Shown here piece after piece: positions 30,524-45,172 of a stretch of 64,000 nt of DNA; position 1 is the first letter of the stretch; each line of letters begins with the position of its first letter. Location of the stretch: NCBI GenBank assembly GCA_023475225.1, contig JAMCVK010000008.1:13018-77017 (forward strand), written 5' to 3'. The notes below the pieces were generated by a model. That model searched no databases. It saw nothing but the letters and a program-made list of their open reading frames with translations, and had not been told where the DNA came from. This stretch comes from Chloroflexota bacterium. GTDB lineage: Bacteria > Chloroflexota > UBA6077 > FW602-bin22 > JAMCVK01. The position numbers were made by a program, and so were the translations under genes.

Positions 30524-30580
30524 TCCTGCTTTGCCTCCTTAAATTACTGCTGAAGCCATTATAAGATTGTGGGGTTTCCA

Positions 30581-30617: not shown

Positions 30618-30660
30618 GAAAGGATATACTCCAAGAACAAGTTATCCAGCGCAGGCTCTC

Positions 30661-31791: not shown

Positions 31792-31887
31792 CGCTCGTCC
31801 TCCTTGGAAAAAATTTGTCCGAAACACGCAGGATCCAGTGATTCACACCTCGATGTGGATCGATCGGAGTTAGTAACGACAACCTGG

Positions 31888-34194
31888 CTAACTGCTGGCT
31901 TCCACCTCCTCTCGGCATTTCCAGCTGACTGACCGAACCCCATTCATCTCCCTGGCCCGTCGTGTCTGAAGGATTCTCTGCGGCGTAGCCGGTGGCTTCG
32001 TGATCCTGATACCTATTGCATCGTAGATAGCGTTCAGGATGGCCGCCGGGGTCGCGTCAGTGCTGTGCTCCCCTACCCCCTTAGCCCCATAGGGGCCAGT
32101 CGGATAAGGACATTCGATGATTACAGCCGCGGACTTGGTAGGTATGTCGGTAGCTGTGGGGATAAGATATTCGGTCAAGGTCAGGTTGAGGATAAAGCCG
32201 TCCTTGGTCGGCATATCTTCCATCAGGACGTAGCCAAGCCCCTGGACGGCTCCACCAAACAGCTGTCCCTCAACGTTAGCTGGATTAAGGGCTTTACCGC
32301 TGTCATGGACGTTGACTAGTTTTAAGATATTGGTCTCACCTGTCTCCTCGTCCACCTCCACATCAGCTATGGCCGTGATGAAGGTATGGCCGGAGATAGC
32401 ATGGCTGGCTTTGAACCAGGCGTTGGCCACCAGGCATGTCCCTTCAAGATAGGCAGCCTGAGCCACCTCGGCTACAGGAAGTCCCCAATCCGGCCGCTCT
32501 TCAGCGAAGATCCTGCCCTTCTTGACCTGCAGCATATCCGGGGTCATCTCTAACTTCTCAGTCGCCTTCTCACACAGGATGGCCTTTACCTTATCAGCGG
32601 CCATCTTTACCGCGTTCCCCAGGACATAGGCCGACCTCGAGCCTACCTGCGGTCCAGCTTTAAGGGTAGCCGCTGTGCTTCCCGTTATGACCGCAATCGA
32701 GTCCAAGGGGATCCCCAACTCCTCAGCAACTATCTGGGCTACCACCGTAGTGATGCCTGTTCCTATCTCTCCCACCCCTACACGCACAAGGGCCGTGCCA
32801 TCAGGAAGAACTTCAACGCTGGCACCGCTCCCAGTCATTGGACCCATCGGTTTGCCCGATATATCCCAAGTCGGCATAGCCACAGAGATTCCTCGCCCCA
32901 CCTTCTTTTGAGGAGCGGAAGGCTCAGGCCGTGGGCCAGCTACGGTCAAGGCCATCTCCATAGTCTTACCCAGGCTCACTTCCCCATCAAGAACTACTCC
33001 TGGCACGCCTGGAATCGCCCCCTCTTGCAAGGCATTCTGTAAGCGAAACTGAACGGGATCGATCTCCAATCGCTGGGCCACCGCCTCCATCTGAGACTCG
33101 GTGGCCGTGATCGCCTGCGGCTCGCCATAGCCGCGCATGGCACCTGAAACGGGGTTATTGGTATAAACGGCCAGGCCATCCACCTTGATGTGAGGCATGT
33201 CGTAGGGTCCTGGGAAGGAGGAACACATCACCTGCAACACATAGGGCGAAGCTGAAGCATAAGCTCCCGCATCAGCGACAACGTCTACCTCGATAGCCGT
33301 CAACTTCCCTTCTTTGGTTGTGCCCATCTTATACTTAAGACGAACCGGATGACGCTTGACGTGCATCAAGGTTGATTCTTCGCGCGTCCACACCATCTTG
33401 ACTGGTTGACCAGTCTTTAAGGCCAAGAGGGCCAGATGGATCTGGAGGGAAACATCAGAACGGCCACCAAAATGCCCCCCCGCCGTAATGGCTATCACCT
33501 CAATCTTGCTTTGTGGCCAGCCTAAGGCCTTGGCGATGGCAGCCCGGATATAGACCGGATCAGAGCATCCAGTATAAACTGTTAGCTCCCCTCGGGCATT
33601 GATCGTCGCCACACCGGACTCTGGTTCCAGAAAAGCATGCTCCTGACGTGGCCAGCGATAAGTTTCCTCGATGACCACGTCGGCTTGAGCAAAACCCCGC
33701 ACAATATCCCCTTTATTGAAGTGGTATTCGCTACAGATATTCCCTCCCTTGTCTTCATGCACCAGCATTGCCCCTGGCTGTAGGGCTATCTCAGGTTCAG
33801 CGATTACCTCCAACTCCTGGTACTCCATTTCAATCAGTTCAATGGCTCGCTGAGCTATCTCCGCTGAGCGCGCTGCGACCAACGCGATTGGGTCGCCTAC
33901 TCTCCTGGCCTTCTCCCCTATAGCCACCAATACCGGCTGATCTGCAATTGCCAGGCCGTGTCGGTTAATGCCCCGGATGTCAGCGGCTGTGACCACAGCC
34001 TCCACCCCCCAGAGATTCGCCACTTTGCTCGTGTCAATACTCAACACCCTGGCGTGAGGGAAGGGACTACGCAAGGTCCTGGCAAACAACATCCCCGGAA
34101 GGTAGATATCGCCGCCAAATTTGGCCGCCCCAGTTACCTTCTCCAGGGCATCTATACGTCTGACCGGATAACCCACCACTTCAAGATCGGTCAT
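31888..34194 (-). CDS. Xanthine dehydrogenase-family molybdopterin-binding large subunit (no adjacent Fe-S or FAD subunit)
   Basis: 768 aa. VVGYPVRRIDALEKVTGAAKFGGD, GGHFGGR and GAKGVGE are typical motifs. Confidence 0.9.
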   Translation of the reverse strand: MTDLEVVGYPVRRIDALEKVTGAAKFGGDIYLPGMLFARTLRSPFPHARVLSIDTSKVANLWGVEAVVTAADIRGINRHGLAIADQPVLVAIGEKARRVGDPIALVAARSAEIAQRAIELIEMEYQELEVIAEPEIALQPGAMLVHEDKGGNICSEYHFNKGDIVRGFAQADVVIEETYRWPRQEHAFLEPESGVATINARGELTVYTGCSDPVYIRAAIAKALGWPQSKIEVIAITAGGHFGGRSDVSLQIHLALLALKTGQPVKMVWTREESTLMHVKRHPVRLKYKMGTTKEGKLTAIEVDVVADAGAYASASPYVLQVMCSSFPGPYDMPHIKVDGLAVYTNNPVSGAMRGYGEPQAITATESQMEAVAQRLEIDPVQFRLQNALQEGAIPGVPGVVLDGEVSLGKTMEMALTVAGPRPEPSAPQKKVGRGISVAMPTWDISGKPMGPMTGSGASVEVLPDGTALVRVGVGEIGTGITTVVAQIVAEELGIPLDSIAVITGSTAATLKAGPQVGSRSAYVLGNAVKMAADKVKAILCEKATEKLEMTPDMLQVKKGRIFAEERPDWGLPVAEVAQAAYLEGTCLVANAWFKASHAISGHTFITAIADVEVDEETGETNILKLVNVHDSGKALNPANVEGQLFGGAVQGLGYVLMEDMPTKDGFILNLTLTEYLIPTATDIPTKSAAVIIECPYPTGPYGAKGVGEHSTDATPAAILNAIYDAIGIRITKPPATPQRILQTRRAREMNGVRSVSWKCREEVEASS

Positions 34195-34279
34195 TTCTAG
34201 ACTCTTCCAGGCAAGCGAATCATTGCCGCCTTGAAGCCCTGCTCATAGCCAGCACATGCAGAAAATAGTCTGTTCAACC

Positions 34280-35209
34280 CTATTTTTCGCCCCTCTCGAA
34301 TGGCCTCCCCAGAGCAGCCGGGGCCACAACCCGGCCAACGACTAGGGTCATAACGATGATGGTCAACACATAGGGGATCATTTGCAGTAACTGGACAGGG
34401 ATATCAAGAGTCAGATGTTGTTGCACGGCATCAGCCAGGGTGAATACTATGGAGGCAACAAATACCCCTAGAGGATTCCACCGTCCGAAGATGTTGGCTG
34501 CCACAGCGATCCATCCCCTACCTGCGGTCATATTCTGTTGGAAGAAGTTCAATTGCCCCAAGGAGAGAGATACCCCTCCCAGACCAGCCAGAGCGCCGCT
34601 CAGAACAACACAGAAATAGCGAGTTCTATTCACATTCAGGCCAAGACTATCGGCCGCTTCTGGATTCTCCCCGATTGCGCGCAGCTTTAGTCCGATAGAG
34701 GTCTTAAAGAGGACAATTTGGGCGAGGATGACGACAGCAAAGAGGACAAAAACAAGAGGATTCTGCCGATCGAACAATATACCTAAAAGGGGAATGTCCT
34801 TCAGCAAGGGAACGGATACGGTTGGTAGGGCTGTTACCATTTCCGACTGACCCTTATTACCCCAGATGACCTGTAATAGGAAAGTAGTTAACCCTAAAGC
34901 AAGCAGAGGAATGGTTATCCCACTAAGAGCTTGATTTACTTTAAGATTGATGCAAAGTACAGCGTGCAGTAAGCCAAAGATAGCGCCGAAGATGATACCG
35001 GTTAGGACCCCCAGCCATGGATTCCCTGTATAAAAGGTTGTCAGCGCCCCGCCAAAGGCGCCCATCAGCATCATTCCTTCTAATCCAAGGTTCATTATCC
35101 CTGAGCGTTCAGAGAAAGTACCACCGATAGCGGCCAGGGCGATGGGGACACACATACGCATCGCGGCAGCCAGAATAGACATGGGTACAGCCGCATCAAA
35201 GCCGATCAT
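34280..35209 (-). CDS. ABC transporter permease, BMP/nucleoside type (NupQ/YufQ-like)
   Basis: Polytopic membrane protein. ATG 35209 is preceded by GGGAGGA. Confidence 0.8.
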   Translation of the reverse strand: MIGFDAAVPMSILAAAMRMCVPIALAAIGGTFSERSGIMNLGLEGMMLMGAFGGALTTFYTGNPWLGVLTGIIFGAIFGLLHAVLCINLKVNQALSGITIPLLALGLTTFLLQVIWGNKGQSEMVTALPTVSVPLLKDIPLLGILFDRQNPLVFVLFAVVILAQIVLFKTSIGLKLRAIGENPEAADSLGLNVNRTRYFCVVLSGALAGLGGVSLSLGQLNFFQQNMTAGRGWIAVAANIFGRWNPLGVFVASIVFTLADAVQQHLTLDIPVQLLQMIPYVLTIIVMTLVVGRVVAPAALGRPFERGEK

Positions 35210-35251
35210 GCCTGATCCTCCCAAGCACAACCTTTCATTTTAACTACTGTG

Positions 35252-35734
35252 CTAGCGGGAAAGTCCGTCGGTCTCAACCCTTTCCTTGAGGCGTCTCAGG
35301 AGACGATCTAATACCTCTAACTCCTCCCCTTCATAGCAGGCCATCATGCGAGTCAGGAACTCTCTATAAGGCTGTTTGACCTTATCCCGAAGCTCCTGTC
35401 CTTTCTCGGTGATCTCCACCATAATGACCCGCCTGTCCTCATCATGGGGAACTCGCCGCACTAAACCATCACGCTCCATGCGGTCGATGAGCGTGGTCGT
35501 ATTACTATTGCCCCGAAAGAGCTTTTGACTCAACTCAGTCAGAGAGGTGGCTCTGCTCTCCGATAGGTGTCGCAAGACACCATACTTAATGGTGGTGATG
35601 TTCCAGCGCGACATCTCCTTTTCCACCCTTCTGGCGACAGCGTCATGGGTCCGGCGGAGCAGTACGTACGTATCTATCGCTCGCTGAGAGGCTTCAGTTG
35701 TAGACTCGGAAATCTGTTGCGGTCTCATGGCCAC
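35252..35734 (-). CDS. MarR-family transcriptional regulator
   Basis: 160 aa with a winged HTH (ITTIKYGVLRHLSESRATSLTELSQKLFRGNSNTTTLIDRMERDGLVRR). Confidence 0.85.
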   Translation of the reverse strand: MAMRPQQISESTTEASQRAIDTYVLLRRTHDAVARRVEKEMSRWNITTIKYGVLRHLSESRATSLTELSQKLFRGNSNTTTLIDRMERDGLVRRVPHDEDRRVIMVEITEKGQELRDKVKQPYREFLTRMMACYEGEELEVLDRLLRRLKERVETDGLSR

Positions 35735-35822: not shown

Positions 35823-37202
35823 TTACTGGAGGGCAGCCCGTTGAATCAAGTCTTCAGCTACAGATTCAGATCTGGAGAGCACCTCTCCTTCGTCCACCGT
35901 TAAAACTCTCCTCCCCTCCATCACTATTCGGCCGTCAATGACCACTGTATCCACATCACTGCCATTGGCACAATACACCAGAGCAGAGATAACCCGGTGA
36001 ATGGGGAGGGTATGCGCCTTCCATAGATCCACAAGGACGATATCCGCCTTCTTGCCCGGTTCAAGCGAGCCTATCTTGGCTTCCATACCCAAGGTTTTGG
36101 CTCCCCCAAGGGTAGCCATCTCAAAGACCTGTTCACAGGGGGTAACGGTTGGGTTCAAGTGATGAACCTTATGCAGAAGAGCGGCCGTTTTCATGACACC
36201 GAACATATCCTGATTGTTATTAGCTGCCCCATCACTGCCCAGGGCGATGTTGATGCCGGCTCGCAACATCTCGGGCAGGCGGGCCACCCCAGAGGCTAAG
36301 AACATATTGCTGACGGGACAATGAATCAGGTTGCCTCCGCTTTCAGCCAGCAGGGCGATCTCCTCGTCACTGAGCCACACCCCGTGTACCACGTGAAAGC
36401 GTGGCCCCAGTACCCCCAGGCTATGTAGCAATTGGATCTCCCTCATACCATAATCCTCAAGCGTCGCTTCGACCTCGGACCGACTCTCGGCCACATGGGT
36501 ATGGATACAGGTTCCATATTTATCGTAGAGGGATTTAAGGGCCGTAAACAGGTGCGGTCCACTGGCAAAGATGGTCACAGGAGCAGGGCAGACACTGACC
36601 ATTCCTCGACCCTCTCCCTGCCACCTGAGCAGCAGTCTCTCCATTATGTCTAGATCTTCTTCCAAAGAGTAAGCGTAGAGAAATCTTGGAATACCCCATT
36701 TTTCTGCCCGTGGCGTGTGGTAGCGAAGACCTCGGGCTATGAGGCCTCGCATCCCGGTTTGTAGATAGGCCTTGGCTATGTTGTCCACTACGGACTCGCT
36801 GGTGTTCACTGTATGGTTATCCACAATGCACGTAGTTCCCGACTTGATTGCCTCCACACAGCTGAGGAGCGCTCCTGCATAGACGTCTTCTGCCGTTAAA
36901 ACTGTGGCTATGGGGTAGATAGCCTTAGTAAGAAAGTCGATCAGGTCTTTATCGTCGCCCAACCCTCGCAGGAGAGCCTGAAACATATGGGTATGAGCAT
37001 TTATCAAGCCAGGTATAGCTACCTTCCCCCTCGCTTCGATTATCCGGTCCGCGCCGGTGTACCTGAGATCATCAGTCGTCCCTACGGCGATGATGCGGTC
37101 ATCCTCTATAAGGATAGCGCCATCTTTTATTATCCGTCTCTCAGCATCCATACTTACTATGGTGGTATTGACGATAGCCGTGAGCACTTTTCTCTCCTCC
37201 AA
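35823..37202 (-). CDS. Amidohydrolase, ATZ/TRZ (chlorohydrolase / MTA-SAH-deaminase / nucleobase-deaminase-like) family
   Basis: 459 aa. PGLINAHTHMFQALLRGLGDD (HxH metal motif) and a later HVAES are present. Confidence 0.85.
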   Translation of the reverse strand: MEERKVLTAIVNTTIVSMDAERRIIKDGAILIEDDRIIAVGTTDDLRYTGADRIIEARGKVAIPGLINAHTHMFQALLRGLGDDKDLIDFLTKAIYPIATVLTAEDVYAGALLSCVEAIKSGTTCIVDNHTVNTSESVVDNIAKAYLQTGMRGLIARGLRYHTPRAEKWGIPRFLYAYSLEEDLDIMERLLLRWQGEGRGMVSVCPAPVTIFASGPHLFTALKSLYDKYGTCIHTHVAESRSEVEATLEDYGMREIQLLHSLGVLGPRFHVVHGVWLSDEEIALLAESGGNLIHCPVSNMFLASGVARLPEMLRAGINIALGSDGAANNNQDMFGVMKTAALLHKVHHLNPTVTPCEQVFEMATLGGAKTLGMEAKIGSLEPGKKADIVLVDLWKAHTLPIHRVISALVYCANGSDVDTVVIDGRIVMEGRRVLTVDEGEVLSRSESVAEDLIQRAALQ

Positions 37203-37206
37203 CCTA

Positions 37207-39144
37207 TCACTTTACTAATTTACCATACTGCGCCAGCCTTTCGGCCACTCCTTCCAGGCCAAGCTCCTGTAGGCATTTCTCTGTCTGCCAACTCGTGGCC
37301 AGGTCCCAGCCCTGTAGGGTATAGTACTCCTCCAACATTTGTTCCCACTTCTTGTGCTCTAGCACTTCTCCAGCGAATGGCCCTGATTTAGTGGGCTCCC
37401 TCATCAGCCGTTCTGGAGGGAAATCATCCTGGCGCGTGAAGCCAGCGTGAAGAGTGTTAAAGGCCTTCTCAACGTTATGGAGACGTTGACCGAGACGCAG
37501 CAGTTCCCCACTGGAGAGGTTAGTGCCTGTAGTGGCTGAGAAAAGTAGGGCGAGGTCCTCGGGATCAATTAAGTCGCTATCCAGCCAGCAGGTTAGGAAA
37601 TAGCATATCCCCAACATATCGACCACAGCCTTAAACTTCTCAAACCAGAAAACGACTTGGGCTTGTCCCTCGTAGGCGGTGAGGTTACCGGCGGCTGCTG
37701 TACCATAGAGGGCTCTTCCCAACTCCGGCGATATGCGCCGGAAGCCGGTACTTGGAGCACCGTCAAGGTGTCCCCCACCCCGTGTGCTGGTTACAATACC
37801 CAAGGCCCAAGATTTGCTTATCCTCATCCCCCCCTCGTTCATATCCGCCCCTTTTATATGCATAGCGTAGCGTTCAGAACCTCTACCGATGGTCTTGGCT
37901 GCTTGTCTCACGCCCTGGGCTAAGAATTTCCCGAAGTCCTGCCGATAGGCTAGCTGTTCCACCAACTTTAGAGCAGCCTGATAATCACCCCAATTGAGCT
38001 GCAGCCCTCCCGTATCTTTGATATTGATGATACCACGTTCGTAGAGCTCGCAGGCCCAGGCCAGGCATACCCCAGCCATATCTGTATCCAAACCCAGTTG
38101 GTTACACAGGGCCTGAGCCTTGATGAGCGCAGGGGGGTAATCAATATCAAGATTGGGGCCAAAGACCCTGATGGTGTTAGCCTGTATCCCCTCACAGCGT
38201 ATGCCGGCGTAGGGTCCCTCTTTTATACCATAGAAATGGCCACAATAGACAGGACAGTTGAAACAAGCTAACCTTCGCCGCTCAAAGTTGTCCTTAAAGA
38301 CCTGCTCTTTTATCTTCGCCGATCGCTCGGCAGGCCAGTAGTCATCCTGGTAATTACGCACGGTTTGAGGTTGCGTACCATAAGCTCCTCCAGCTGCATA
38401 GGCATAATGCGTTCCTCCAGTGCGAAGCAACCCTGCTCCGGATGATTCTTCGATCTTTCGTAAGCAGCGCCTCACATGCTCCAACAGCGTATCTGGATCG
38501 TAGACCTGAATCGGCTGGGTGCCTCGAACAGCGATGGCTTTCAGGCGTTTAGAGCCCAGTACAGCCCCTGTCCCACCCCTGCCCGCCGCTCTGCCTCTCT
38601 CGATGATCAGACAAGCACCCAGTACCAGGTTTTCTCCAGCCGGACCAATACTGGCCACCCGCAGGCGATCATCATCCATCCTCTCCTGTAACCAGCTCTC
38701 CGTCTCCCAGGTAGTCTTGCCCCAAAGAGGAGAGGCGTCCAGGAGCTCAGCCTTATCATCCTGGATAAGCAAAAAGACCGGCTGAGATGCTACTCCTTCA
38801 ATTATAAGGGCATCAAAGCCGGCAAACTTCAGTTCTGGTCCGAACCGTCCTCCGGCGCTGGAGGAGGCTACCCCACCGGTAAGGGGGTTCTTCGTATCAA
38901 CGTTCAAGCGCCCTGAGGCTGGAGCAATAGTACCCGTGAGGGGCCCGGTGCTTAACACTACCTTATTACCCGGCTCAAGGGCGCCAACCGATGGCTCAAG
39001 CTCCTGGAACAAAACCCACTGACCAATCCCACGTCCACCTATCATCTCTCGGGCATAAGCCTCAGTCGGCTCTACGTTTATCTTCGCCGTTGATAGGTCC
39101 ACTCGCAGGATCTTTCCTGTCCAGCCAAGGGTCTGTTCCACCAC
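37207..39144 (-). CDS. Aldehyde:ferredoxin oxidoreductase family (tungstopterin-type AOR)
   Basis: 645 aa. GWTGKILRVDLSTAKI...GGRGIG matches the AOR N-terminal domain and the length fits. GTG start. Confidence 0.9.
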   Translation of the reverse strand: MVEQTLGWTGKILRVDLSTAKINVEPTEAYAREMIGGRGIGQWVLFQELEPSVGALEPGNKVVLSTGPLTGTIAPASGRLNVDTKNPLTGGVASSSAGGRFGPELKFAGFDALIIEGVASQPVFLLIQDDKAELLDASPLWGKTTWETESWLQERMDDDRLRVASIGPAGENLVLGACLIIERGRAAGRGGTGAVLGSKRLKAIAVRGTQPIQVYDPDTLLEHVRRCLRKIEESSGAGLLRTGGTHYAYAAGGAYGTQPQTVRNYQDDYWPAERSAKIKEQVFKDNFERRRLACFNCPVYCGHFYGIKEGPYAGIRCEGIQANTIRVFGPNLDIDYPPALIKAQALCNQLGLDTDMAGVCLAWACELYERGIINIKDTGGLQLNWGDYQAALKLVEQLAYRQDFGKFLAQGVRQAAKTIGRGSERYAMHIKGADMNEGGMRISKSWALGIVTSTRGGGHLDGAPSTGFRRISPELGRALYGTAAAGNLTAYEGQAQVVFWFEKFKAVVDMLGICYFLTCWLDSDLIDPEDLALLFSATTGTNLSSGELLRLGQRLHNVEKAFNTLHAGFTRQDDFPPERLMREPTKSGPFAGEVLEHKKWEQMLEEYYTLQGWDLATSWQTEKCLQELGLEGVAERLAQYGKLVK

Positions 39145-39362: not shown

Positions 39363-40763
39363 CTATAGGGTGGGCCACCTGGAACACGGTTGAACACCTG
39401 TCCTGGCTAAAAGCGCCTGGGCACGTCGTCTTGCTTCAGCCAAGACCTCCTCCTCATCCAGGGTAAGAACATGGCCATCCTTGACCACTACTTTTCCATC
39501 TATAAGCACAGTGTCAACATCACCTCCACAGGCGCTGTAGACTAACCCTGAAACAGGATTGGGACAAGGGGTTAGATGGGGCTTGTCCATATCGATGATG
39601 ACCAAATCTGCCTTCTTGCCAACCTCCAAGGAGCCGATCTCACTATCTAGCCCCATAGCCTTTGCCCCATTGATCGTGGCCATCTCAACTACTTGTTCGG
39701 CCGGCATCACCGTCGGATCGAGGGTGATGCCATTGTGGATGACTGCAGCGAGCTTCATCTCTCGTACGAGATCGTAGGTATTATTACAGTGACCACCATC
39801 GGTGCCCAAGCCCACGTTGACCCCTTGCTGAAGCATCGCCGGAATCGGGGCGAAGCCGTGTCCTCCTTTCATATTAGAAGAGGGACAATGCACCACATGC
39901 GTCCCCATCCGAGCAAGGGTGACTATTTCAGCCTCTGTTAACCAAACAGCGTGGGCCAGGAGGCAATTTGGCCCCAACAAGCCAACGCTTTCAGCAAACT
40001 CAACGGGCAGCAGACCGAATTCACTCTTCGTATACTCCACGTTGGTTTTCACCTCAGCCAGGTGTACCGTGATACCCAAGCCCCTTTTCGCGGCAATCTT
40101 GCTGATCTCCTGGTACAGACCAGGCGTGCATCCTCCCAGTGGGCGAGGACCGAACCAGACCTTGATGCGACCACCGCCCACCCCATCCCACTTATCGTGC
40201 ATGGCTAAGGCTTCAGCCAGGCTGGCCTGGCGATCCTCCTCCAAACCGCTGTGCATAATATTGTACATAATATTTAACGCCGCGGCACGACCAGGACTGG
40301 GCCGATCCATCACCGTCTTAGATAGCACCGCCCTCATCCCAGACGCTCTTACCACCTCAGCTATTCCATCAAACCCATAGCGGCTGGCGATCATCGACTC
40401 GACGAAGGCCGTAGTGCCCGAGCGCAACATCTCCAATAGACAGAGGGCGGCGCTGGCCCGCCCGTCCTCCACAGTGTAATTCCCCTGCAGTACCAAAATT
40501 CTTTGGCCAAGCCTCTGTAACTGAGGTAGATCATCGGCACAGCAACGGAGCATCGCCTGGGCCAGGTGAACGTGGGTATTAATGAGGCCTGGCATAATGA
40601 GCTTGCCTGTAGCCTCGATCCGTTCCTCAGCGGGGAACTGCTTCCTCATCTCCTCCGTCTTTCCTACCCCCACGATGCGGTCGCCCTGAATGGCAACTGC
40701 TCCATCGAGGATGATACGTCGTTGCGCATCTACAGTGATAACAGTAGCCTTCTCAAAAATCAT
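39363..40763 (-). CDS. Amidohydrolase, ATZ/TRZ/SsnA-like family (second paralogue)
   Basis: 466 aa. PGLINTHVHLAQAMLR, HLAE and the C-terminal GSLEVGKKADLVIID are present. Confidence 0.85.
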   Translation of the reverse strand: MIFEKATVITVDAQRRIILDGAVAIQGDRIVGVGKTEEMRKQFPAEERIEATGKLIMPGLINTHVHLAQAMLRCCADDLPQLQRLGQRILVLQGNYTVEDGRASAALCLLEMLRSGTTAFVESMIASRYGFDGIAEVVRASGMRAVLSKTVMDRPSPGRAAALNIMYNIMHSGLEEDRQASLAEALAMHDKWDGVGGGRIKVWFGPRPLGGCTPGLYQEISKIAAKRGLGITVHLAEVKTNVEYTKSEFGLLPVEFAESVGLLGPNCLLAHAVWLTEAEIVTLARMGTHVVHCPSSNMKGGHGFAPIPAMLQQGVNVGLGTDGGHCNNTYDLVREMKLAAVIHNGITLDPTVMPAEQVVEMATINGAKAMGLDSEIGSLEVGKKADLVIIDMDKPHLTPCPNPVSGLVYSACGGDVDTVLIDGKVVVKDGHVLTLDEEEVLAEARRRAQALLARTGVQPCSRWPTL

Positions 40764-40877: not shown

Positions 40878-41891
40878 CTACTTAATGGTAACCGCCGCCG
40901 GATCAACCTTCTTCAAGCCATCGACGTAAACGAACGGCTTGAAGTTAGGTACCACCGCTCCCTTCAGGGCCAGACCCGCATCTATGGCCCATTGGGCCTG
41001 TCTTTGCCACTCGTTGAGCAACCCCTGGCTCAGCTCAGTCTTAATCTGATACTCATCCCATATAGCTTCCACCAGAACTGGATCCCACTTCGTTCCCTTG
41101 ACCACCAGCTCGATCGCCTCCTTCTTGTTCTGCTTCAGGAAGGCGTCGGCTTTGAGCATCACCCGCAAGATACGCTCAATTGTCTCCGGATTCTGCTGAG
41201 CATAGTCTTGAGTAGTAGCCAGCAAGGAGTGACCAGTATACTGGGGATAAATAAATTCCACATAGTTGTCCCCCAGGGCCTGCTTCGCCTTGAAGAAGTT
41301 GGGTTGCCAGCTGAAGAAGGCATCGATATTGCGGGCAGACAAGGCCAGAACCATATCGGTCGGGACTACGTTCACCACCTGCACATCGGCCTCGGTTAAC
41401 CCGTTAGCCTTGAGGAAGGAATGCATAAAATATTGGGCGTTGGTCCCCAGGCTGGTACCCACCTTCTTGCCTTTCAGGTCTTTTGGGGTAGTTATCCCAG
41501 CATCCTTACGCGCTACCGCCCGCCAAGTCGTGTACCTCTCTGTATCGGCGATGATGGCTATCTTCTGCCCCTGAAAGGCAGCGAAGACGATGGGTATCTC
41601 GGCCACCGTAGCCAGGTGAGCCTTCCCTCCTAGGACAGCCTCCAAGGCGGCCCGACCAGTGGTGAAGGTCACCTTCGTCACCTTAATCCCTTCTTGAGCC
41701 CAAAGCTCCTTAGCATCAGCGATAGGGATCTGGGCCCAGGCTGGCGAAGGTGTCTCAGCAATGATCAGTTCCACCGGTTTCACGGCCACCTTCGTCGGTG
41801 TTGGTGTTGGGGCAGCCGCGGGGGTACAGGCGCTGGAGGCGAAACTGAGCAGTACAACGATGATTATGGGTAGCGAAAACCATCTTTTCAC
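40878..41891 (-). CDS. ABC-type substrate-binding lipoprotein, NMT1/THI5-like (second copy, orphan)
   Basis: 337 aa with a lipobox-like SSAC followed by TPAAAPTPTPTK. GTG start with AAAGGAGAC RBS. Confidence 0.75.
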   Translation of the reverse strand: MKRWFSLPIIIVVLLSFASSACTPAAAPTPTPTKVAVKPVELIIAETPSPAWAQIPIADAKELWAQEGIKVTKVTFTTGRAALEAVLGGKAHLATVAEIPIVFAAFQGQKIAIIADTERYTTWRAVARKDAGITTPKDLKGKKVGTSLGTNAQYFMHSFLKANGLTEADVQVVNVVPTDMVLALSARNIDAFFSWQPNFFKAKQALGDNYVEFIYPQYTGHSLLATTQDYAQQNPETIERILRVMLKADAFLKQNKKEAIELVVKGTKWDPVLVEAIWDEYQIKTELSQGLLNEWQRQAQWAIDAGLALKGAVVPNFKPFVYVDGLKKVDPAAVTIK

Positions 41892-42025: not shown

Positions 42026-43417
42026 CTATGAGAACGCGCTGCCCAGAGGCACACCTAAGTCTATAAGCTCTCGCTTCACTTTGAGATAGAGATCAAGCCA
42101 CTCTCGGGCTGGCTGAAGTGTCCCCAAATCGAAGCACTCGACGAAGCTCTTCCCCTTGGGGGGATCTTTAAGGCTATCCTCGTACTTCGCCAGGAGGATC
42201 TTGACAATCTCGTTAGCTTGTTCGCGTTTCAATCCGGCTGATCGCTTTAAGACCTCGCCACAAAATTTGCACTCCAGAGGGGTTAGGTAGTTGGCGTACT
42301 TACCGCCGGCCGAACGGGGTCCGATCACAATACTGGCTCCCGAAACAGCGAAGTTCAACATCACGGCAGCTGACTCATAGAGCAACATCTCCGTGCCAGG
42401 ACCAGCCACCTGATTAGTAACCGAATTAGTGATTAGATGGGTATTGCGACTCAAAGCTTGAAAGACGACGCTTATCGTCCACTGGGCATGGCGGCCGCAG
42501 TTGCCCATGTAGCGCAGGTCCAGCACGCCAGAGGCACCGCAATGACACTGGTGAACGACGTATTGCAACAGGGAAAAGGCGATAGCTGAAAGGGCAGCCC
42601 CCTCCGGTGGCCCGGAGTAGCCACCGATCATGGAGGAGGCCCCAGAGAGGATCACCCCACCACAGTTCAAGGCATGGACCACTTTATGAAGGGAGGTATA
42701 GGTAGTTTTGAGCTCGGCTGGGGAGAGGACAAGAGCGATATCTGTTGGTTTAAAGCCACCCGGTAGACCATAGCCACCCAATTGCCCAAACTCGGTTGTG
42801 CTGGAGATAACCGCTGTCGCGGGCATGCCTGATCTACCAGCCCGCCAGAGCGCCTCGTGGTGCATCTGGGCATGGAGCCTTCCAGCGAATGTTTCATAGG
42901 GGGTAGCGGACAATATGGGTCGGCCAAATACAGTCTCCAGGGAACCACCCTGGGCGATGTCTACCTCCCGGTTTTGGACAATGCCCTGCATAAGAGGCAC
43001 CCATAGGTCCTCGGAGACCACTATGCCCAAGGGGGCCGTAAAGGCTGGGGGATGTGGATCTTCCGGCTGGCGCGCTCGCAGAATCACTGTTTCTCGTCCC
43101 TCGCCGACAGGTAACTCACGCGGCGCCCGCTGAATGGCTGATCGCAATTCATCCTCACTCACCTTGATTACTCTCTCAGTATTTAAGCAAAGCATGCCCA
43201 CTTCAACGGCCAACTCAAAACCAGCCTTAAAGAAGGCGTCAGCCAGAGCATCGTCGCTGTTTATAGGGTGCTCTGGGGTGCAGGTACCTTGCAGGTGGTA
43301 ATCCTTCAACTTCTCGGCTACCCTGGGGGGAATAACACGCATATCCCAGTCTTTAACTGCGCAGAGCGGGCCGGTGTGGGCTCGATCGAGAATATCCAGG
43401 ATAGTAAAGACAGACAT
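42026..43417 (-). CDS. MtmB-family (monomethylamine methyltransferase fold) protein lacking pyrrolysine
   Basis: 463-aa uninterrupted ORF. It matches Methanosarcina MtmB (as recalled) end to end. DRAHTGPLCAVKDWDMRVIP aligns with DRAKVGEKCTQDDWDLMKIP. FFKAGFELAVEVGMLCLNTERVIKVSEDEL aligns with LFKAGFEMLLECGIYCTDTHRIVKYTEDEI. VAGPGTEMLLYESAA aligns with CAGPCTEMCLLEASA. GKSFVECFDL aligns with GKTFQECYDV. There is no in-frame TAG. Confidence 0.75.
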   Translation of the reverse strand: MSVFTILDILDRAHTGPLCAVKDWDMRVIPPRVAEKLKDYHLQGTCTPEHPINSDDALADAFFKAGFELAVEVGMLCLNTERVIKVSEDELRSAIQRAPRELPVGEGRETVILRARQPEDPHPPAFTAPLGIVVSEDLWVPLMQGIVQNREVDIAQGGSLETVFGRPILSATPYETFAGRLHAQMHHEALWRAGRSGMPATAVISSTTEFGQLGGYGLPGGFKPTDIALVLSPAELKTTYTSLHKVVHALNCGGVILSGASSMIGGYSGPPEGAALSAIAFSLLQYVVHQCHCGASGVLDLRYMGNCGRHAQWTISVVFQALSRNTHLITNSVTNQVAGPGTEMLLYESAAVMLNFAVSGASIVIGPRSAGGKYANYLTPLECKFCGEVLKRSAGLKREQANEIVKILLAKYEDSLKDPPKGKSFVECFDLGTLQPAREWLDLYLKVKRELIDLGVPLGSAFS

Positions 43418-43439
43418 TGAATACCTCTCTCTTTTTCTC

Positions 43440-44117
43440 TTAATTTGCGCTGGTTTTTGTGGCCGATTTCATCAGCTCTTTACAGACCCTCACGGCCTCA
43501 GCGGCATCACGACCATAGGCATCGGCCCCTATGGAGTGGGCCCACTCTCGCGTCACCGGTCCACCGCCGACGATAACCTTGTACATCTCTCTTTCACCAC
43601 TTGCTACCAGGGTAGAGATGAGATATTTCATATAAGGCATCGAGGTCGTCAGTAAAGAGCTCATAGCAATGATATCCGCCCCCGTGTCCCGCGCTCTAGC
43701 CAGGAAGGTAGACACCGGAACATCCGTCCCCAGGTCAGTCACCTCAAAGCCATTCACCTGGAGCATAACTCCCACCAGGTTCTTTCCTATATCGTGGATG
43801 TCGCCTTGCATCGTCCCAATGACCACTCTGGCCAAAGACTTTACCGCTGAGTCTCCCTGTCTGAGGACGGGTTCCAGAACTTTATTGATCTCCTGGACGA
43901 CTTCTGCGGCCAACATCATCTCCGGCAGAAAGATCTCAAACCGCTCAAATTTATCCCCAATCTTCCTGAGAGTGGGGATGATGCACTCATCGAATATTTG
44001 GGGTGGGGTCAGCCCAACAGTTAACGCCTGCTGGGCCAGCTCGTGCCCCCGTGTGGTTTGTCCTTGACTTATGGCCGCCATAAGGCTCGCCTTGATCTCC
44101 TCGACTGATGTGCTCAT
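43440..44117 (-). CDS. Corrinoid (cobalamin-binding) protein, MtmC/MtbC/MttC-like
   Basis: 225 aa. An N-terminal helical cap is followed by a B12-binding Rossmann domain with DxHxxG (GDIHDIGKN). Confidence 0.85.
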   Translation of the reverse strand: MSTSVEEIKASLMAAISQGQTTRGHELAQQALTVGLTPPQIFDECIIPTLRKIGDKFERFEIFLPEMMLAAEVVQEINKVLEPVLRQGDSAVKSLARVVIGTMQGDIHDIGKNLVGVMLQVNGFEVTDLGTDVPVSTFLARARDTGADIIAMSSLLTTSMPYMKYLISTLVASGEREMYKVIVGGGPVTREWAHSIGADAYGRDAAEAVRVCKELMKSATKTSAN

Positions 44118-44281
44118 TACTATCTCCCTTTTATATTTATAAACGTATCAATCCCTGAAAAATCCCATCTTAGGGGATTTAAGAGGATACACCCCTACCT
44201 CCCCTGCTCACAGCGGCCAGGACAGCAAAGGCCCCCTCTACTCCCTATCGAACGTACCTTGGAAGAATCTCTAGGTATCTT

Positions 44282-45001
44282 TTAAGAAAGGCCCCCTTCG
44301 ATGGCAATTACCCTGGCCGGTGCTCCATCAGATCCCTTTATCTTCAAGGGGAGGCATATTAGCCAGACCCGTTCCCTGCTGATGGCCCCTAGATTAGTTA
44401 ACCACTCGATCAGAACGATTCCCTTCTTAAGAAATTTACGGTGGTTTGGACTACCTTTCCCCGAAGGGCGCAGCGCCCCACAATGTGGGCATGCGACAAA
44501 TGGTTGAACCTCAGCCATAAAGTCAAGGGCGAGGGATTTGATGCCTCGGCCGATAAGCCAGTCGCAGGCATCTGTGGAAAGCCAGATCATAGCGCGCCAG
44601 AATCTCTCTGTTCCCCAAGGCCCTCGCTCCGTCCAGCCGCTGCGCAGGATGACTATATCGCCCTCTTTCACCTGGGCCGTGGAGGAGCTGAGATCCGCCG
44701 CAGTAACACCCTCACCTGGGTGTTTATGACTCAAATCAATGAGGACCGCTTCCCCCACCAGCTGTTCCAGGGGGATTTCATCGTTGGCCAGCCCATCCTC
44801 ATAAAAATGTTTGGGGGCATCTATATGGGTGAAGCTCTGCGTAGTGGTCTGTATCTTCTGCATAAAGAGGCCATCTTTAGCAATCGTGGCGAAGGTTTCA
44901 ATCCTCGTCGGGGGCTCCTCCTGGCCGAAGGTCACCCTGGCTGGATATTTGGTCCAGGCATCTTGCGAAGATATGCTCAACGTGAGATCGATCAAACGCA
45001 C
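44282..45001 (-). CDS. Cyclase-family protein (kynurenine formamidase-like metal hydrolase)
   Basis: 239 aa with the HxDxPxH motif (THIDAPKHF). GTG start. Confidence 0.75.
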   Translation of the reverse strand: MRLIDLTLSISSQDAWTKYPARVTFGQEEPPTRIETFATIAKDGLFMQKIQTTTQSFTHIDAPKHFYEDGLANDEIPLEQLVGEAVLIDLSHKHPGEGVTAADLSSSTAQVKEGDIVILRSGWTERGPWGTERFWRAMIWLSTDACDWLIGRGIKSLALDFMAEVQPFVACPHCGALRPSGKGSPNHRKFLKKGIVLIEWLTNLGAISRERVWLICLPLKIKGSDGAPARVIAIEGGLS

Positions 45002-45108: not shown

Positions 45109-45172
45109 TCGCTTGCAAAATAGTTTAGCAGACAAAGTACAGATTGTCAAGGCTTTTTGCAACCAAATTTGG

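What the first reader, a model, noticed from the sequence alone, without database searches (positions are those of the whole stretch)
42026..45001. Non-pyrrolysine MtmB-family methyltransferase with its own corrinoid protein, heading a bacterial catabolic island
The 463-aa ORF at 42026-43417(-) aligns by eye from N- to C-terminus with archaeal monomethylamine methyltransferase MtmB. Shared blocks are DxxDRAxxGxxCxxxDWDxxxIP, FKAGFExxxExGxxCxxTxRIxKxxEDE, AGPxTEMxLxExxA and GKxFxECxD. In methanogens that gene needs an in-frame UAG (pyrrolysine) near residue 202. Here the ORF is uninterrupted, and the segment aligned with the Pyl site reads GRSGMPATAVISS (aa 194-206), probably with Thr or Ala at that position. 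This alignment is from memory, not computed. A B12-binding corrinoid protein (DxHxxG = GDIHDIG) sits 22 nt upstream, and a cyclase/formamidase-like hydrolase sits upstream of that. Non-Pyl members of the different MttB superfamily are known to demethylate quaternary amines such as glycine betaine. I know of no substrate assigned to a non-Pyl MtmB-fold enzyme. Within the 64 kb there is no MT2-type (MtbA/MtaA, URO-D fold) methyl acceptor transferase, no RamA-type reductive activase and no pylTSBCD. The neighbours are amidohydrolases, an AOR and Mo-hydroxylases rather than methanogenesis or acetogenesis genes. This suggests an undescribed corrinoid-dependent (de)methylation step in N-compound catabolism.
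Basis: partly seen in the sequence, partly recalled or inferred. Interest (0 to 1): 0.8.

Follow-up and report, generated by a model that had tools for sequence, protein, structure and literature searches.

The report
Pyrrolysine-free MtmB methyltransferase in nucleobase-catabolism cluster
A Chloroflexi gene cluster pairs a pyrrolysine-free relative of the methanogen enzyme MtmB and its vitamin-B12 carrier protein with genes for importing and breaking down purine-like ring compounds, a pairing conserved in about 80 genomes, which suggests an undescribed anaerobic route for stripping methyl groups off methylated nucleobases.

Summary
ORF 42026-43417(-) is a full-length, uninterrupted MtmB-family protein (Pfam E 1.3e-89; model TM 0.93 to 1NTH). 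Thr201 sits at the pyrrolysine column. A canonical corrinoid protein lies 22 nt upstream.

The claim that no non-Pyl MtmB has a substrate is outdated. MtqB (tetramethylammonium/choline) was characterised in March 2026, and non-Pyl MtmBs have long been known.

What is new is the context. The protein belongs to a distinct clade (47-70% identity to it, about 29% to Pyl-MtmB) found in Chloroflexota, Hadarchaeota, Bathyarchaeia, Bacillota, Acidimicrobiia and Spirochaetes. In 48 distinct loci of at least 15 kb:
- 94% have a corrinoid protein.
- 81% have a guanine-deaminase/AtzA-type amidohydrolase.
- 56% have a xanthine-dehydrogenase-family Mo-hydroxylase.
- 46% have a Bmp (purine/nucleoside-type) ABC binding protein.
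- 50% have an MT2, and 19% have RamA.

So this is an ordinary three-component corrinoid system whose MT2 and activase lie outside this window.

The Pyl column behaves like a specificity position. The best reading is a methyltransferase I for an N-methylated purine-like heterocycle. The substrate is inferred, not shown. I found no paper making this link.

The parts
42026..43417 (-). Non-pyrrolysine MtmB-family methyltransferase I (463 aa), with Thr201 at the Pyl column
   Evidence: Pfam PF05369 E 1.3e-89, full length. PDB 1L2Q E 3e-59. AF2 model pLDDT 93.7. Foldseek 1NTH TM 0.93, rmsd 1.7 A. No NCBIfam equivalog.
43440..44117 (-). Cognate corrinoid protein (225 aa) with a helical cap plus Rossmann B12 domain. 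Motifs: DxHxxG = GDIHDIG, SxL = SSL, and a GG motif.
   Evidence: PF02607 plus PF02310. Best NCBIfam hits are TIGR02370 pyl_corrinoid (184.6 bits, below its 215.3 cut-off) and the MtgC and MtbC models. A corrinoid gene lies within 300 bp of the MtmB-like gene in 85% of 84 loci.
44282..45001 (-). Cyclase-family metal-dependent hydrolase (of the kynurenine-formamidase / isatin-hydrolase type). It is the first gene of the unit.
   Evidence: PF04199 E 1e-27. PDB hits: 1r61 and 8hmo metal-dependent hydrolases, isatin hydrolase, kynurenine formamidase. It is 66% identical to the cyclase beside the MtmB-like gene in L025 and L029.
45122..45150 (-). Promoter-like site (TTGACA-17-TAAACT, with an extended -10 TG) upstream of the cyclase gene
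   Evidence: This is a consensus match only, and counts in the region do not exceed shuffles.
40878..41891 (-). NMT1/SsuA-type solute-binding lipoprotein. It lies in a segment that relatives lack.
   Evidence: PF09084 E 1e-27. TIGR01728 at 133 bits, below its cut-off. No ortholog in L025, L029, L003 or L010.
39363..40763 (-). Second amidohydrolase (cog0402-type deaminase/chlorohydrolase), in the lineage-specific segment
   Evidence: PF01979 E 2e-75. PDB best hits: AtzA, MTA/SAH deaminase, 8-oxoguanine deaminase. Only 35-39% identical to the relatives' amidohydrolase.
37207..39144 (-). Tungsten/molybdenum aldehyde:ferredoxin oxidoreductase family protein, in the lineage-specific segment
   Evidence: PF02730 plus PF01314. 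An AOR lies within 10 kb in 21% of long relatives' loci.
35823..37202 (-). Conserved partner amidohydrolase (heteroaromatic-amine deaminase type)
   Evidence: PF01979 E 6e-65. PDB best hits: AtzA 1e-69, MTA/SAH deaminase, 8-oxoguanine and guanine deaminases. It is 51-56% identical to the amidohydrolase beside the MtmB-like genes in L025, L029, L003 and L010.
35252..35734 (-). MarR-family regulator, conserved in the subclade
   Evidence: PF01047. 45-60% identical orthologs in L001, L003, L010, L025 and L029. Promoter-like site at 35810-35782(-).
24698..35230 (-). Block of eight genes:
- permease 34280-35230
- Mo-hydroxylase large subunit 31888-34194
- Bmp/PnrA-type binding protein 30661-31827
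- OCD/mu-crystallin 29501-30523
- M42 peptidase 28303-29403
- FMN reductase 27500-28300
- double ABC ATPase 25824-27446
- permease 24698-25831
   Evidence: Pfam. The Mo subunit is closest to nicotinate dehydrogenase NdhL/NdhM and to 4-HBCR. The Bmp protein is closest to purine/nucleoside-binding lipoproteins and to AtzT. OCD (64%), M42 (55%) and FMN_red (62%) have orthologs in L025.
20821..24684 (-). Second Mo-hydroxylase with fused 2Fe-2S domains (21859-24684), and a luciferase-like oxidoreductase (20821-21858)
   Evidence: Pfam. PDB best hits: D. gigas aldehyde oxidoreductase, NdhL, 4-HBCR, XDH. L025 has an LLM ortholog at 36% identity.

Best explanation
The MtmB-like protein is the substrate-specific methyltransferase I (MT1) of a corrinoid-dependent methyl-transfer system.

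Proposed steps:
1. It binds an N-methylated N-heteroaromatic compound. Most likely this is a methylated purine or related nucleobase, for example a ring-N-methylated, cation-like base such as 7-methylguanine, 1-methyladenine or 3-methylcytosine, or a methylxanthine.
2. It transfers the methyl group to the Co(I) form of the corrinoid protein encoded 22 nt upstream.
3. An MT2 (URO-D or pterin-binding type) encoded elsewhere in this genome passes the methyl group on to a carrier, probably tetrahydrofolate.
4. A RamA-type activase repairs oxidised corrinoid.
5. The demethylated ring is processed by the co-clustered enzymes: deamination by the cog0402 amidohydrolase, hydroxylation by the Mo-hydroxylases, and further hydrolysis by the cyclase-family hydrolase. 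The substrate itself is imported by the Bmp-type ABC transporter, under MarR control.

Shown: family, fold, absence of Pyl, the cognate corrinoid protein, and the conserved gene association.
Inferred: the direction of transfer, the substrate class, and the order of steps.
For: Family and fold:
- Pfam MtmB E 1.3e-89 and TM 0.93 to 1NTH.
- The scaffold motifs shared with MtmB (AGPxTEM, GKxFxEC, DWD) are invariant in the clade.

Corrinoid partner:
- It carries the DxHxxG motif.
- A corrinoid gene lies within 300 bp in 85% of 84 loci.

Canonical system in relatives:
- Of 48 loci of at least 15 kb, 50% have an MT2 and 19% have RamA.
- L029 reads URO-D-CoP-MtmB-cyclase-MarR-AH-Bmp-ABC.

Substrate class:
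- In the same 48 loci, 81% have a cog0402 amidohydrolase, 56% an XDH-family Mo subunit and 46% a Bmp binding protein. 67% have at least two of the three (amidohydrolase of either type, XDH, Bmp).
- This holds across Chloroflexota, Hadarchaeota, Bathyarchaeia, Hecatella, Bacillota, Acidimicrobiia and Spirochaetes.
- The partner amidohydrolase is closest to AtzA, MTA/SAH deaminase, 8-oxoguanine deaminase and guanine deaminase.
- The Bmp protein is closest to purine/nucleoside-binding proteins.
- Orthology of the cyclase, MarR, AH, OCD, M42 and FMN_red genes with L025 and L029 shows a conserved module.
- No betaine-type transporters recur.
- Three non-Pyl MtmBs from other branches lack XDH and Bmp neighbours.

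Diversified pocket:
- The Pyl column carries T, Y, I, G, W, E and other residues by subclade.
- It ranks 14th of 451 columns on a within-conserved, between-different score.
- Clusters with 4-5 paralogs exist.

Orphan activity:
- 13C from caffeine N-methyl groups reaches CH4 in anoxic sediment, with Anaerolineae, Ardenticatenales and Bathyarchaeia enriched and no enzyme identified (bioRxiv 10.64898/2026.01.06.697959).
Against: - No biochemical or expression datum exists for this clade.
- The substrate class rests on guilt by association, without a matched genomic background control. The enrichment estimate relies on general knowledge that XDH and Bmp genes are few per genome.
- The Mo-hydroxylases in the window are closer to nicotinate dehydrogenase, 4-HBCR and aldehyde oxidoreductase than to bona fide xanthine dehydrogenase.
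- No purine, THF or cobalamin riboswitch was found in the window or in 13 related loci.
- No MT2 or RamA is in the 64 kb window.
- Some subclades sit in other contexts: pyrimidine-reductive/carbamate-kinase genes (L005, L009, L067), or sugar-type ABC plus an MttB-family gene. One substrate class may therefore not fit the whole clade.
- The caffeine preprint attributes the demethylation to Methanosarcina, not to these taxa.
Confidence: 0.55

Rival explanations
1. It is a quaternary-amine or pyridinium-betaine methyltransferase that works like MtqB. The substrate would be choline, tetramethylammonium, or an aromatic betaine such as trigonelline (N-methylnicotinate) or homarine. The ring product would then be hydroxylated by the nicotinate-dehydrogenase-like Mo enzyme.
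For: - The only characterised non-Pyl MtmB homolog, MtqB, uses tetramethylammonium and choline (PMC13044021).
- The window's Mo subunit matches E. barkeri nicotinate dehydrogenase NdhL plus NdhM best (3.6e-103 and 1e-49).
- L003 and L010 have the split FAD/FeS/Mo-L/Mo-M architecture typical of that enzyme.
- L009 has aconitase-family and PEP-mutase/ICL-family genes nearby, reminiscent of the nicotinate fermentation pathway.
Against: - The conserved amidohydrolase partner is a heteroaromatic-amine deaminase type. It is not an enamidase or dihydropyrimidinase type, and trigonelline has no amino group to remove.
- The transporters are Bmp-type. No BCCT or OpuA-type betaine carriers recur.
- The clade is only about 29% identical to Pyl-MtmB. 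It is separate from the branches nearest Pyl-MtmB, where the paper places MtqB.
- No Methanococcoides sequence was among the best 80 of 215 relatives in the genome collection.
Confidence: 0.17
2. The amidohydrolases release methylamine (or another small alkylamine) from an N-alkylamino heterocycle, for example N6-methyladenine giving hypoxanthine plus methylamine, or a triazine. The MtmB-like enzyme then demethylates that free amine without pyrrolysine.
For: - The amidohydrolases are closest to AtzA, TrzN and hydroxyatrazine ethylaminohydrolase-type enzymes, some of which release alkylamines.
- One Bmp relative is the atrazine-binding AtzT.
- MtqB shows a trace of methylamine activity (PMC13044021).
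Against: - Pyrrolysine is considered necessary to activate methylamine (established view, restated in PMC13044021). Here it is Thr.
- Two acidic residues of MtmB, E229 and E259, which I recall from memory as flanking Pyl, are Leu and Gly here.
- The Pyl-equivalent column differs between subclades and is conserved within them. Up to five paralogs sit in one cluster. This argues for several different, larger substrates rather than one small amine.
Confidence: 0.12
3. It removes an O-methyl or S-methyl group, not an N-methyl group, from a nucleoside or heterocycle. Examples would be a methylthio-purine/nucleoside or a methoxylated heteroaromatic. The rest of the pathway is unchanged.
For: - The amidohydrolases score highly against 5'-deoxyadenosine and MTA/SAH deaminase models (NCBIfam PRK07228, 415.8 bits, below its cut-off) and structures.
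- Bmp proteins typically bind nucleosides.
- Corrinoid methyltransferase systems for O- and S-methyl donors exist (established knowledge).
Against: Known O- and S-demethylating MT1s belong to other families (MtaB, URO-D-type, MtsA/B; established knowledge). Every member of the MtmB fold with a known function acts on N-methyl groups.
Confidence: 0.08

Closest known systems
MtmB, pyrrolysine-containing monomethylamine:corrinoid methyltransferase of Methanosarcina barkeri (PDB 1NTH, 1L2Q)
   Same: Same Pfam family and same TIM-barrel fold (TM 0.93, rmsd 1.7 A over 455 columns). It is colinear from N- to C-terminus. It shares the scaffold motifs (DWD, AGPxTEM, GKxFxEC). It is encoded next to a cognate corrinoid protein.
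   Different: Only 28-29% identical. There is no UAG/pyrrolysine: Thr201 occupies that column. MtmB E229, E259, Q333 and Y335 are L, G, V and N here. There are no pyl genes or tRNA-Pyl in the window. The host is bacterial and non-methanogenic. The neighbours are heterocycle-catabolic rather than methanogenesis genes.
MtqB, non-Pyl MtmB homolog of Methanococcoides methylutens Q3c (tetramethylammonium/choline:corrinoid methyltransferase; PMC13044021, 2026)
   Same: It is a non-pyrrolysine member of the MtmB superfamily of about 459 aa. It is encoded next to its own corrinoid protein (MtqC). It methylates Co(I) from an N-methyl donor that needs no Pyl activation.
   Different: MtqB works in a methanogen with MtbA/MtqA and CoM. 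The authors place it near the Pyl-MtmB branch, whereas the window clade is a separate branch with a purine-type gene context. I could not retrieve the MtqB sequence, so their identity to each other is untested.
Non-Pyl MttB-superfamily methyltransferases (MtgB glycine betaine, MtpB proline betaine, MtcB carnitine, MtyB gamma-butyrobetaine)
   Same: Same logic: a Pyl-free relative of a Pyl enzyme, paired with a corrinoid protein, MT2 and RamA, demethylating a charged N-methyl compound in anaerobic bacteria.
   Different: A different family (PF06253). There is no Pfam hit to it, and structural similarity is only at TIM-barrel level (TM about 0.5). Those substrates are aliphatic betaines taken up by betaine carriers.
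Aerobic caffeine/methylxanthine N-demethylases NdmA, NdmB and NdmC of Pseudomonas putida CBB5 (from my own knowledge)
   Same: If the hypothesis is right, the task is the same: position-specific removal of N-methyl groups from a purine ring by several paralogs, followed by xanthine-dehydrogenase-type oxidation.
   Different: There is no homology. The Ndm enzymes are O2-dependent Rieske monooxygenases that release formaldehyde. The system here would be O2-independent and would conserve the methyl group on a corrinoid.

Membership tests
MtmB superfamily (Pfam PF05369) | Full-length match to the family HMM above the gathering score | tested here: met
   301.6 bits against a cut-off of 25, residues 5-455 on profile 2-449/450
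MtmB superfamily (Pfam PF05369) | TIM-barrel fold superposable on solved MtmB | tested here: met
   AF2 model pLDDT 93.7. Foldseek 1NTH/1L2Q/1TV2 TM 0.93, rmsd 1.7 A.
Monomethylamine:corrinoid methyltransferase MtmB in the strict sense | In-frame UAG decoded as pyrrolysine at the position equivalent to M. barkeri residue 202 | tested here: not met
   The ORF is uninterrupted. Thr201 aligns with Pyl202.
Monomethylamine:corrinoid methyltransferase MtmB in the strict sense | Pyl machinery (pylTSBCD) available | tested here: not met
   None in the 64 kb window by Pfam. No tRNA gene.
Monomethylamine:corrinoid methyltransferase MtmB in the strict sense | Acidic residues around Pyl (E229, E259). Their role is recalled from memory and was not verified in the held literature. 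| tested here: not met
   They are L229 and G259 in the window protein. L/M/I and G dominate these columns in the clade.
MtqB (tetramethylammonium/choline) clade of non-Pyl MtmBs | Clusters phylogenetically with ACT9XH_RS04775 | not testable with these tools
   The sequence is not in the paper or its supplements and could not be retrieved by name. Indirectly, no Methanococcoides locus was among the best 80 of 215 relatives.
Three-component corrinoid methyltransferase system (MT1 + corrinoid protein + MT2, with RamA activase) | Cognate corrinoid protein with DxHxxG encoded beside MT1 | tested here: met
   GDIHDIG motif. PF02607 plus PF02310. 22-nt spacing. Adjacent in 85% of relatives.
Three-component corrinoid methyltransferase system (MT1 + corrinoid protein + MT2, with RamA activase) | MT2 (URO-D or pterin-binding) and RamA encoded with the system | tested here: inconclusive
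   Absent from the window. Present within 10 kb in 50% (MT2) and 19% (RamA) of relatives' long loci. The rest of this genome was not searchable.
Pyl-system corrinoid protein subfamily (NCBIfam TIGR02370) | Score above the curated cut-off | tested here: not met
   It is the best hit, but at 184.6 bits against a cut-off of 215.3. The MtgC and MtbC equivalog models are also far below their cut-offs.
MttB superfamily (PF06253) non-Pyl quaternary-amine methyltransferases | Sequence match to the MTTB family | tested here: not met
   No PF06253 hit at E <= 0.01. MttB and MtgB structures reach only TM about 0.5.

The most novel reading that the evidence does not exclude
This clade of Pyl-free MtmB enzymes is the missing catalyst of a widespread, oxygen-independent pathway that harvests methyl groups from methylated nucleobases. 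These would include m7G, m1A and m3C from nucleic-acid necromass, and methylxanthines such as caffeine. Each paralog would be tuned, through the residue replacing pyrrolysine and the neighbouring pocket positions, to a different base or ring position. The demethylated rings would feed directly into purine and pyrimidine fermentation. This would explain the orphan anaerobic N-demethylation of caffeine seen in sediments. It would also mean that 'mtmB' calls in Chloroflexota, Bathyarchaeia and Hadarchaeota genomes have been misread as methylamine use.
Probability: 0.35. Interest if true: 0.85.

Novelty: new variant of a known kind. Interest (0 to 1): 0.66.

Why it matters
Corrinoid methyltransferases decide which methylated compounds can feed acetogenesis, methanogenesis and fermentation in anoxic habitats. 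Only one non-Pyl MtmB has a known substrate.

This clade is present in abundant subsurface, soil, digester and gut lineages. It shows a consistent genomic link to purine-type ring catabolism that I could not find in the literature.

If the link reflects function:
- It adds a new substrate class (methylated N-heterocycles) to corrinoid methylotrophy.
- It gives a concrete candidate for anaerobic caffeine/methylpurine demethylation.
- It corrects the routine annotation of these genes as methylamine utilisation (for example PMC8407382).
- It offers a natural series of Pyl-site replacements for studying how pyrrolysine-dependent and pyrrolysine-independent enzymes diverged.

The test is simple: cob(I)alamin methylation assays with a panel of methylated bases.

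Tried and rejected
- **MtqB sequence.** I tried to retrieve it for a direct comparison. The paper text and supplements hold no sequence. Searches from M. barkeri MtmB and from a Heimdallarchaeota homolog, plus a cluster look-up, returned no Methanococcoides-named protein. The relationship is therefore bounded only indirectly.
- **Riboswitches.** I looked for ones that would name the ligand. There were no Rfam hits in the window or in 13 related loci, apart from one unrelated T-box.
- **Promoter/terminator scan.** It gave plausible sites upstream of the cyclase and MarR genes, but counts were no higher than in shuffles.
- **Pyl-pocket residues.** I tried to verify from the literature which MtmB residues line the Pyl pocket (E229, E259). 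No paper in the held library carries these terms, so that point rests on memory.
- **Unbiased clustering.** Clustering the unclassified neighbouring ORFs found no further family-wide partner, only genes specific to one subclade.
- **MttB-superfamily member.** Rejected: no Pfam hit, and TM only about 0.5.
- **Disguised Pyl gene.** Rejected: there is no in-frame stop at all.
- **Assembly chimera.** Rejected: the same gene order occurs in three independent assemblies.
- **Enamidase or dihydropyrimidinase as the partner amidohydrolase.** Rejected: the PDB hits are all cog0402 deaminases.

Full report
**1. The observation**

The ORF at 42026-43417(-) encodes 463 aa from an ATG with no internal stop. 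It matches Pfam PF05369 (MtmB) over its whole length (E 1.3e-89, 301.6 bits against a cut-off of 25). It aligns colinearly with the solved M. barkeri MtmB (1L2Q/1NTH; E 3e-59, residues 4-456 against 7-456).

In the HMMER alignment the pyrrolysine (X202) of MtmB is opposite Thr201 of the query (AGRSGMPA-T-AVISS against AGRPGMGV-X-GPETS). Two independent MAFFT alignments give the same column.

An AlphaFold2 model built on 39 clade members is confident (mean pLDDT 93.7, pTM 0.94). It dips to about 60 exactly in residues 201-210, the loop carrying the Pyl-equivalent residue. Foldseek places it on 1NTH/1L2Q/1TV2 with TM 0.93 and rmsd 1.7 A over 455 columns. MttB and MtgB structures reach only TM about 0.5.

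The gene 22 nt upstream (43440-44117) encodes a 225-aa corrinoid protein with the B12-binding_2 cap, the B12-binding Rossmann domain and the motif GDIHDIG. Its best NCBIfam hits are the methylamine/glycine-betaine corrinoid proteins, all below their cut-offs. Upstream of that is a cyclase-family (PF04199) hydrolase.

No MT2, RamA or pyl gene is present in the window, and no tRNA gene either. The same gene order is seen in three independent assemblies.

**2. What was already known**

The protein is in NCBI as 'MAG: monomethylamine:corrinoid methyltransferase [Chloroflexi bacterium]'. Non-Pyl MtmB homologs are not new. Kashyap et al. [quoted passage not shown] They built a tree of 1,061 of them. 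They also showed that one, MtqB of Methanococcoides methylutens Q3c, methylates cob(I)alamin from tetramethylammonium and choline, with a trace of methylamine activity. [quoted passage not shown] All other members remain of unknown function.

In Ca. Formimonas warabiya DCMF, a non-Pyl MtmB was the most strongly induced protein on dichloromethane compared with glycine betaine, with no function assigned (PMC9768040).

**3. The clade**

A search of 5.8 billion proteins returned hundreds of full-length homologs of about 460 aa at 53-70% identity. An exhaustive search of 1.84 billion representatives found 1,007, 579 and 220 clusters at E <= 1e-3, 1e-10 and 1e-30.

A scan of one genome per GTDB species found 215 relatives, of which the best 80 loci were kept. 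They come from:
- Chloroflexota (Anaerolineae, Dehalococcoidales, Caldilineae, Ardenticatenaceae)
- Hadarchaeota (one MAG has at least 16 paralogs on 10 contigs)
- Bathyarchaeia and Ca. Hecatella
- Bacillota (Peptococcaceae, Oscillospiraceae, Syntrophomonadaceae, Ca. Formimonas)
- Acidimicrobiia, Spirochaetes/Treponema and a deltaproteobacterium

In a neighbour-joining tree, the sequences that are 47-70% identical to the window protein form a clade. That clade is separate from two other branches. One holds Pyl-MtmB and its nearest non-Pyl relatives (about 29% identical to the window protein). The other is a Bathyarchaeia/Asgard branch.

**4. Conserved neighbourhood**

I classified ORFs in all loci with phmmer, using seed proteins whose Pfam identity was already established.

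Among 48 distinct loci with at least 15 kb of sequence, the share with each feature within 10 kb of the MtmB-like gene was:

| Feature | Share of loci |
|---|---|
| Corrinoid protein | 94% |
| Amidohydrolase, any type | 88% |
| cog0402 / TRZ-ATZ / guanine-deaminase type amidohydrolase | 81% |
| Xanthine-dehydrogenase-family Mo subunit | 56% |
| Bmp/PnrA-type ABC binding protein | 46% |
| At least two of XDH, Bmp, amidohydrolase | 67% |
| MT2 | 50% (URO-D 33%, pterin-binding 23%) |
| RamA | 19% |
| AOR | 21% |
| Reductive-pyrimidine / carbamoyl-transfer markers | 15-19% (PreA 17%, dihydropyrimidinase-like amidohydrolase 15%, OTCase 19%) |
| Carbamate kinase | 8% |

The corrinoid gene lies within 300 bp in 85% of all 84 loci.

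The association recurs in every major subclade and phylum. That is hard to explain by vertical inheritance of an accidental arrangement. Three non-Pyl MtmBs from other branches (Heimdallarchaeota, an uncultured archaeon, and Methanomassiliicoccaceae next to PylC) have no XDH or Bmp neighbours. This is a small control. I did not have a genome-wide background. The argument that XDH and Bmp genes are rare enough for about 50% co-occurrence to be far above chance rests on general knowledge.

**5. The window's own module**

The closest relatives show the same module in slightly different orders:
- L025 (Ardenticatenaceae): CoP-MtmB-cyclase-MarR-amidohydrolase-Bmp-OCD-OCD-M42-LLM-FMN_red
- L029 (Anaerolineales): URO-D-CoP-MtmB-cyclase-MarR-amidohydrolase-Bmp-ABC
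- L003 and L010: OYE-ETFab-MtmB-CoP-amidohydrolase-MarR-Bmp-XDH (FAD, FeS and split Mo subunits)

BLASTP identities between the window's proteins and those of the relatives are:
- MtmB-like 55-70%
- corrinoid protein 40-47%
- cyclase 66%
- MarR 45-60%
- amidohydrolase 35823-37202, 51-56%
- OCD 64%, M42 55% and FMN reductase 62%

The amidohydrolase at 39363-40763, the NMT1-type binding protein and the AOR (37207-41891) have no counterparts there. They look like an insertion into the module.

The whole run from 45001 down to about 20800 is co-directional with short gaps. Promoter-like hexamers lie upstream of the cyclase and MarR genes, but such matches are not more frequent than in shuffled sequence.

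**6. What the partners say about the substrate**

- The conserved amidohydrolase is closest to AtzA, MTA/SAH deaminase, 8-oxoguanine deaminase, triazine hydrolase and guanine deaminase. These enzymes remove an exocyclic amino (or chloro/alkylamino) group from N-heteroaromatic rings. It does not match enamidase or dihydropyrimidinase.
- The Bmp protein is closest to purine/nucleoside-binding lipoproteins (BmpA/D, PnrA/TmpC) and to the atrazine-binding AtzT.
- The Mo enzymes belong to the xanthine-dehydrogenase family. Within it they are closest to nicotinate dehydrogenase, 4-hydroxybenzoyl-CoA reductase and aldehyde oxidoreductase.
- The cyclase-family protein resembles metal-dependent amide hydrolases such as isatin hydrolase and kynurenine formamidase.

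Together these point to uptake and degradation of an amino-substituted N-heteroaromatic ring, that is, a purine-like compound. No betaine carriers recur.

**7. The pocket**

Scaffold motifs shared with MtmB are invariant in the clade. The Pyl column, by contrast, varies between subclades (T 29, Y 18, I 12, G 10, and W, E, Q, D and others among 113 sequences) and is conserved within them.

On a simple score (mean within-group conservation times the number of different group majorities), the Pyl column ranks 14th and its neighbour 10th of 451 columns. Other top columns cluster at MtmB positions 257-261, 281-282, 291-297 and 363-364.

MtmB residues E229 and E259 are Leu and Gly here. I recall these as flanking Pyl but could not confirm it in the held literature.

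Several Anaerolineales loci carry 4-5 paralogs with two corrinoid proteins, URO-D, a pterin-type MT2, RamA, XDH and amidohydrolases in about 20 kb. This pattern fits a family of enzymes with different, related substrates better than a single small substrate.

**8. Mechanism proposed**

By analogy with MtmB, MtqB and the MttB-family betaine enzymes, the protein most likely presents an N-methyl group to the Co(I) corrinoid for an SN2 attack.

Without pyrrolysine to activate a neutral amine, the leaving group must already be good. This is established reasoning for quaternary amines. Ring-N-methylated bases that are cationic or readily protonated (m7G, m1A, m3C), or N-methyl amide/imide positions of methylxanthines, are plausible in that respect. 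This step is inference.

The methyl-corrinoid would be discharged by an MT2 encoded outside this window. The base would be deaminated, hydroxylated and cleaved by the clustered enzymes.

A January 2026 preprint shows that 13C from the N-methyl groups of caffeine reaches methane in anoxic sediment. It reports enrichment of Anaerolineae, Ardenticatenales and Bathyarchaeia and identifies no demethylase. The authors credit Methanosarcina. This is circumstantial, but it shows that the proposed activity exists in nature as an orphan.

I found no paper linking MtmB homologs to xanthine dehydrogenase, methylated nucleobases or 7-methylguanine.

**9. Rivals**

- A quaternary or pyridinium betaine such as trigonelline. 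This is favoured by the nicotinate-dehydrogenase-like Mo enzymes. It is disfavoured by the deaminase partner and the Bmp transporters.
- Methylamine released by the amidohydrolases. This is disfavoured by the lack of Pyl and by the diversified pocket.
- An O- or S-methyl donor. There is no precedent in this fold.

Contexts of some subclades differ (pyrimidine-reductive genes; sugar-ABC plus an MttB-family gene). The clade probably spans several substrates.

**10. Verdict**

The claim of absolute novelty for a non-Pyl MtmB is outdated, and the missing MT2 and RamA are not a peculiarity of the system.

What remains new is a well-delimited, multi-phylum clade with a conserved link to purine-type ring catabolism. 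That link implies a new substrate class for corrinoid methyltransferases. I rate it a new variant of a known kind, with interest 0.66. My confidence is about 0.85 that it is an MT1 acting on something other than methylamine, and about 0.55 for the methylated-heterocycle reading.

Noticed in passing
L056, L065, L073, L074 (Anaerolineales), whole loci: About 20 kb clusters hold 4-5 divergent MtmB-like paralogs (30-50% identical to the window protein, each with a different Pyl-column residue). They also hold two corrinoid proteins, URO-D, a pterin-type MT2, RamA, XDH subunits and several amidohydrolases. This looks like a multi-substrate or multi-position demethylation locus.
   Followed up: partly
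L013, L016, L019, L024, L041, L044, L059, L061, L062, L084 (one Hadarchaeota MAG, CAYUMT01): A single Hadarchaeota MAG carries at least 16 MtmB-like paralogs on 10 contigs, often beside Bmp-type ABC transporters and amidohydrolases and frequently without an adjacent corrinoid gene.
   Followed up: partly
L076 (Ca. Formimonas warabiya DCMF chromosome, 1.857-1.879 Mb), MtmB-like genes at locus positions about 2921 and about 9980: This cultivated strain has two corrinoid-MtmB-like pairs plus a pterin-type MT2 and an amidohydrolase. A published proteome (PMC9768040) found a non-Pyl MtmB (Ga0180325_111810) to be the most induced protein on dichloromethane. I did not establish whether it is one of these two genes.
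   Followed up: no
window 37207-41891: The NMT1/SsuA-type binding lipoprotein, a second cog0402 amidohydrolase and an AOR sit between the MtmB-like gene and its conserved amidohydrolase/MarR partners. They have no counterparts in the closest related loci, so this is an apparent insertion into the module.
   Followed up: partly
window 44227-44237 and 44287-44297 (- strand): The 11-nt sequence AGGGGGCCTTT occurs twice, 60 nt apart. One copy is at the end of the cyclase gene and the other is in the cyclase-corrinoid intergenic region. This could be a regulatory site or chance.
   Followed up: no
L028, L031, L034, L035, L042, L043, L052, L071 (Anaerolineae/Chloroflexia subclade with Tyr at the Pyl column): In this subclade the MtmB-like gene sits with a sugar-type ABC transporter, a GntR regulator, an FGGY-family kinase, GlcD/GlcF-like oxidase genes, an aldolase and an MttB-family gene. 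This context differs from the purine-type one.
   Followed up: partly
L005/L020 (Ca. Hecatella), L009, L067: Here the MtmB-like genes lie within a PreT/PreA-like dihydropyrimidine dehydrogenase, dihydropyrimidinase-like amidohydrolase, OTCase-like and carbamate kinase block. L009 also has aconitase-family and PEP-mutase/ICL-family genes. This suggests pyrimidine-type or nicotinate-type ring fermentation rather than purine catabolism.
   Followed up: partly
P0125-P0132; L094 3122-4510: Several database 'full-length' MtmBs have Lys at the Pyl column, and one lies next to a PylC gene in a Methanomassiliicoccaceae MAG. These are probably true Pyl enzymes whose UAG was rendered as K, so full length alone does not prove a non-Pyl protein.
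   Followed up: partly
window 243-7347 (- strand): A 1,199-aa N6/N4 DNA methylase carries an inserted DUF559 (Vsr-like endonuclease) domain and a weak, sub-threshold intein-splicing hit. Next to it is a 990-aa ResIII-type helicase. Together they form a restriction-modification-like pair.
   Followed up: no
window 61031-63684 and 18016-20580 (- strand): The window holds two separate sets of 2-oxoacid:ferredoxin oxidoreductase subunits, plus an AOR and a 2x[4Fe-4S] ferredoxin at 45245-45490(+). This is consistent with a ferredoxin-based anaerobic metabolism in the host.
   Followed up: no
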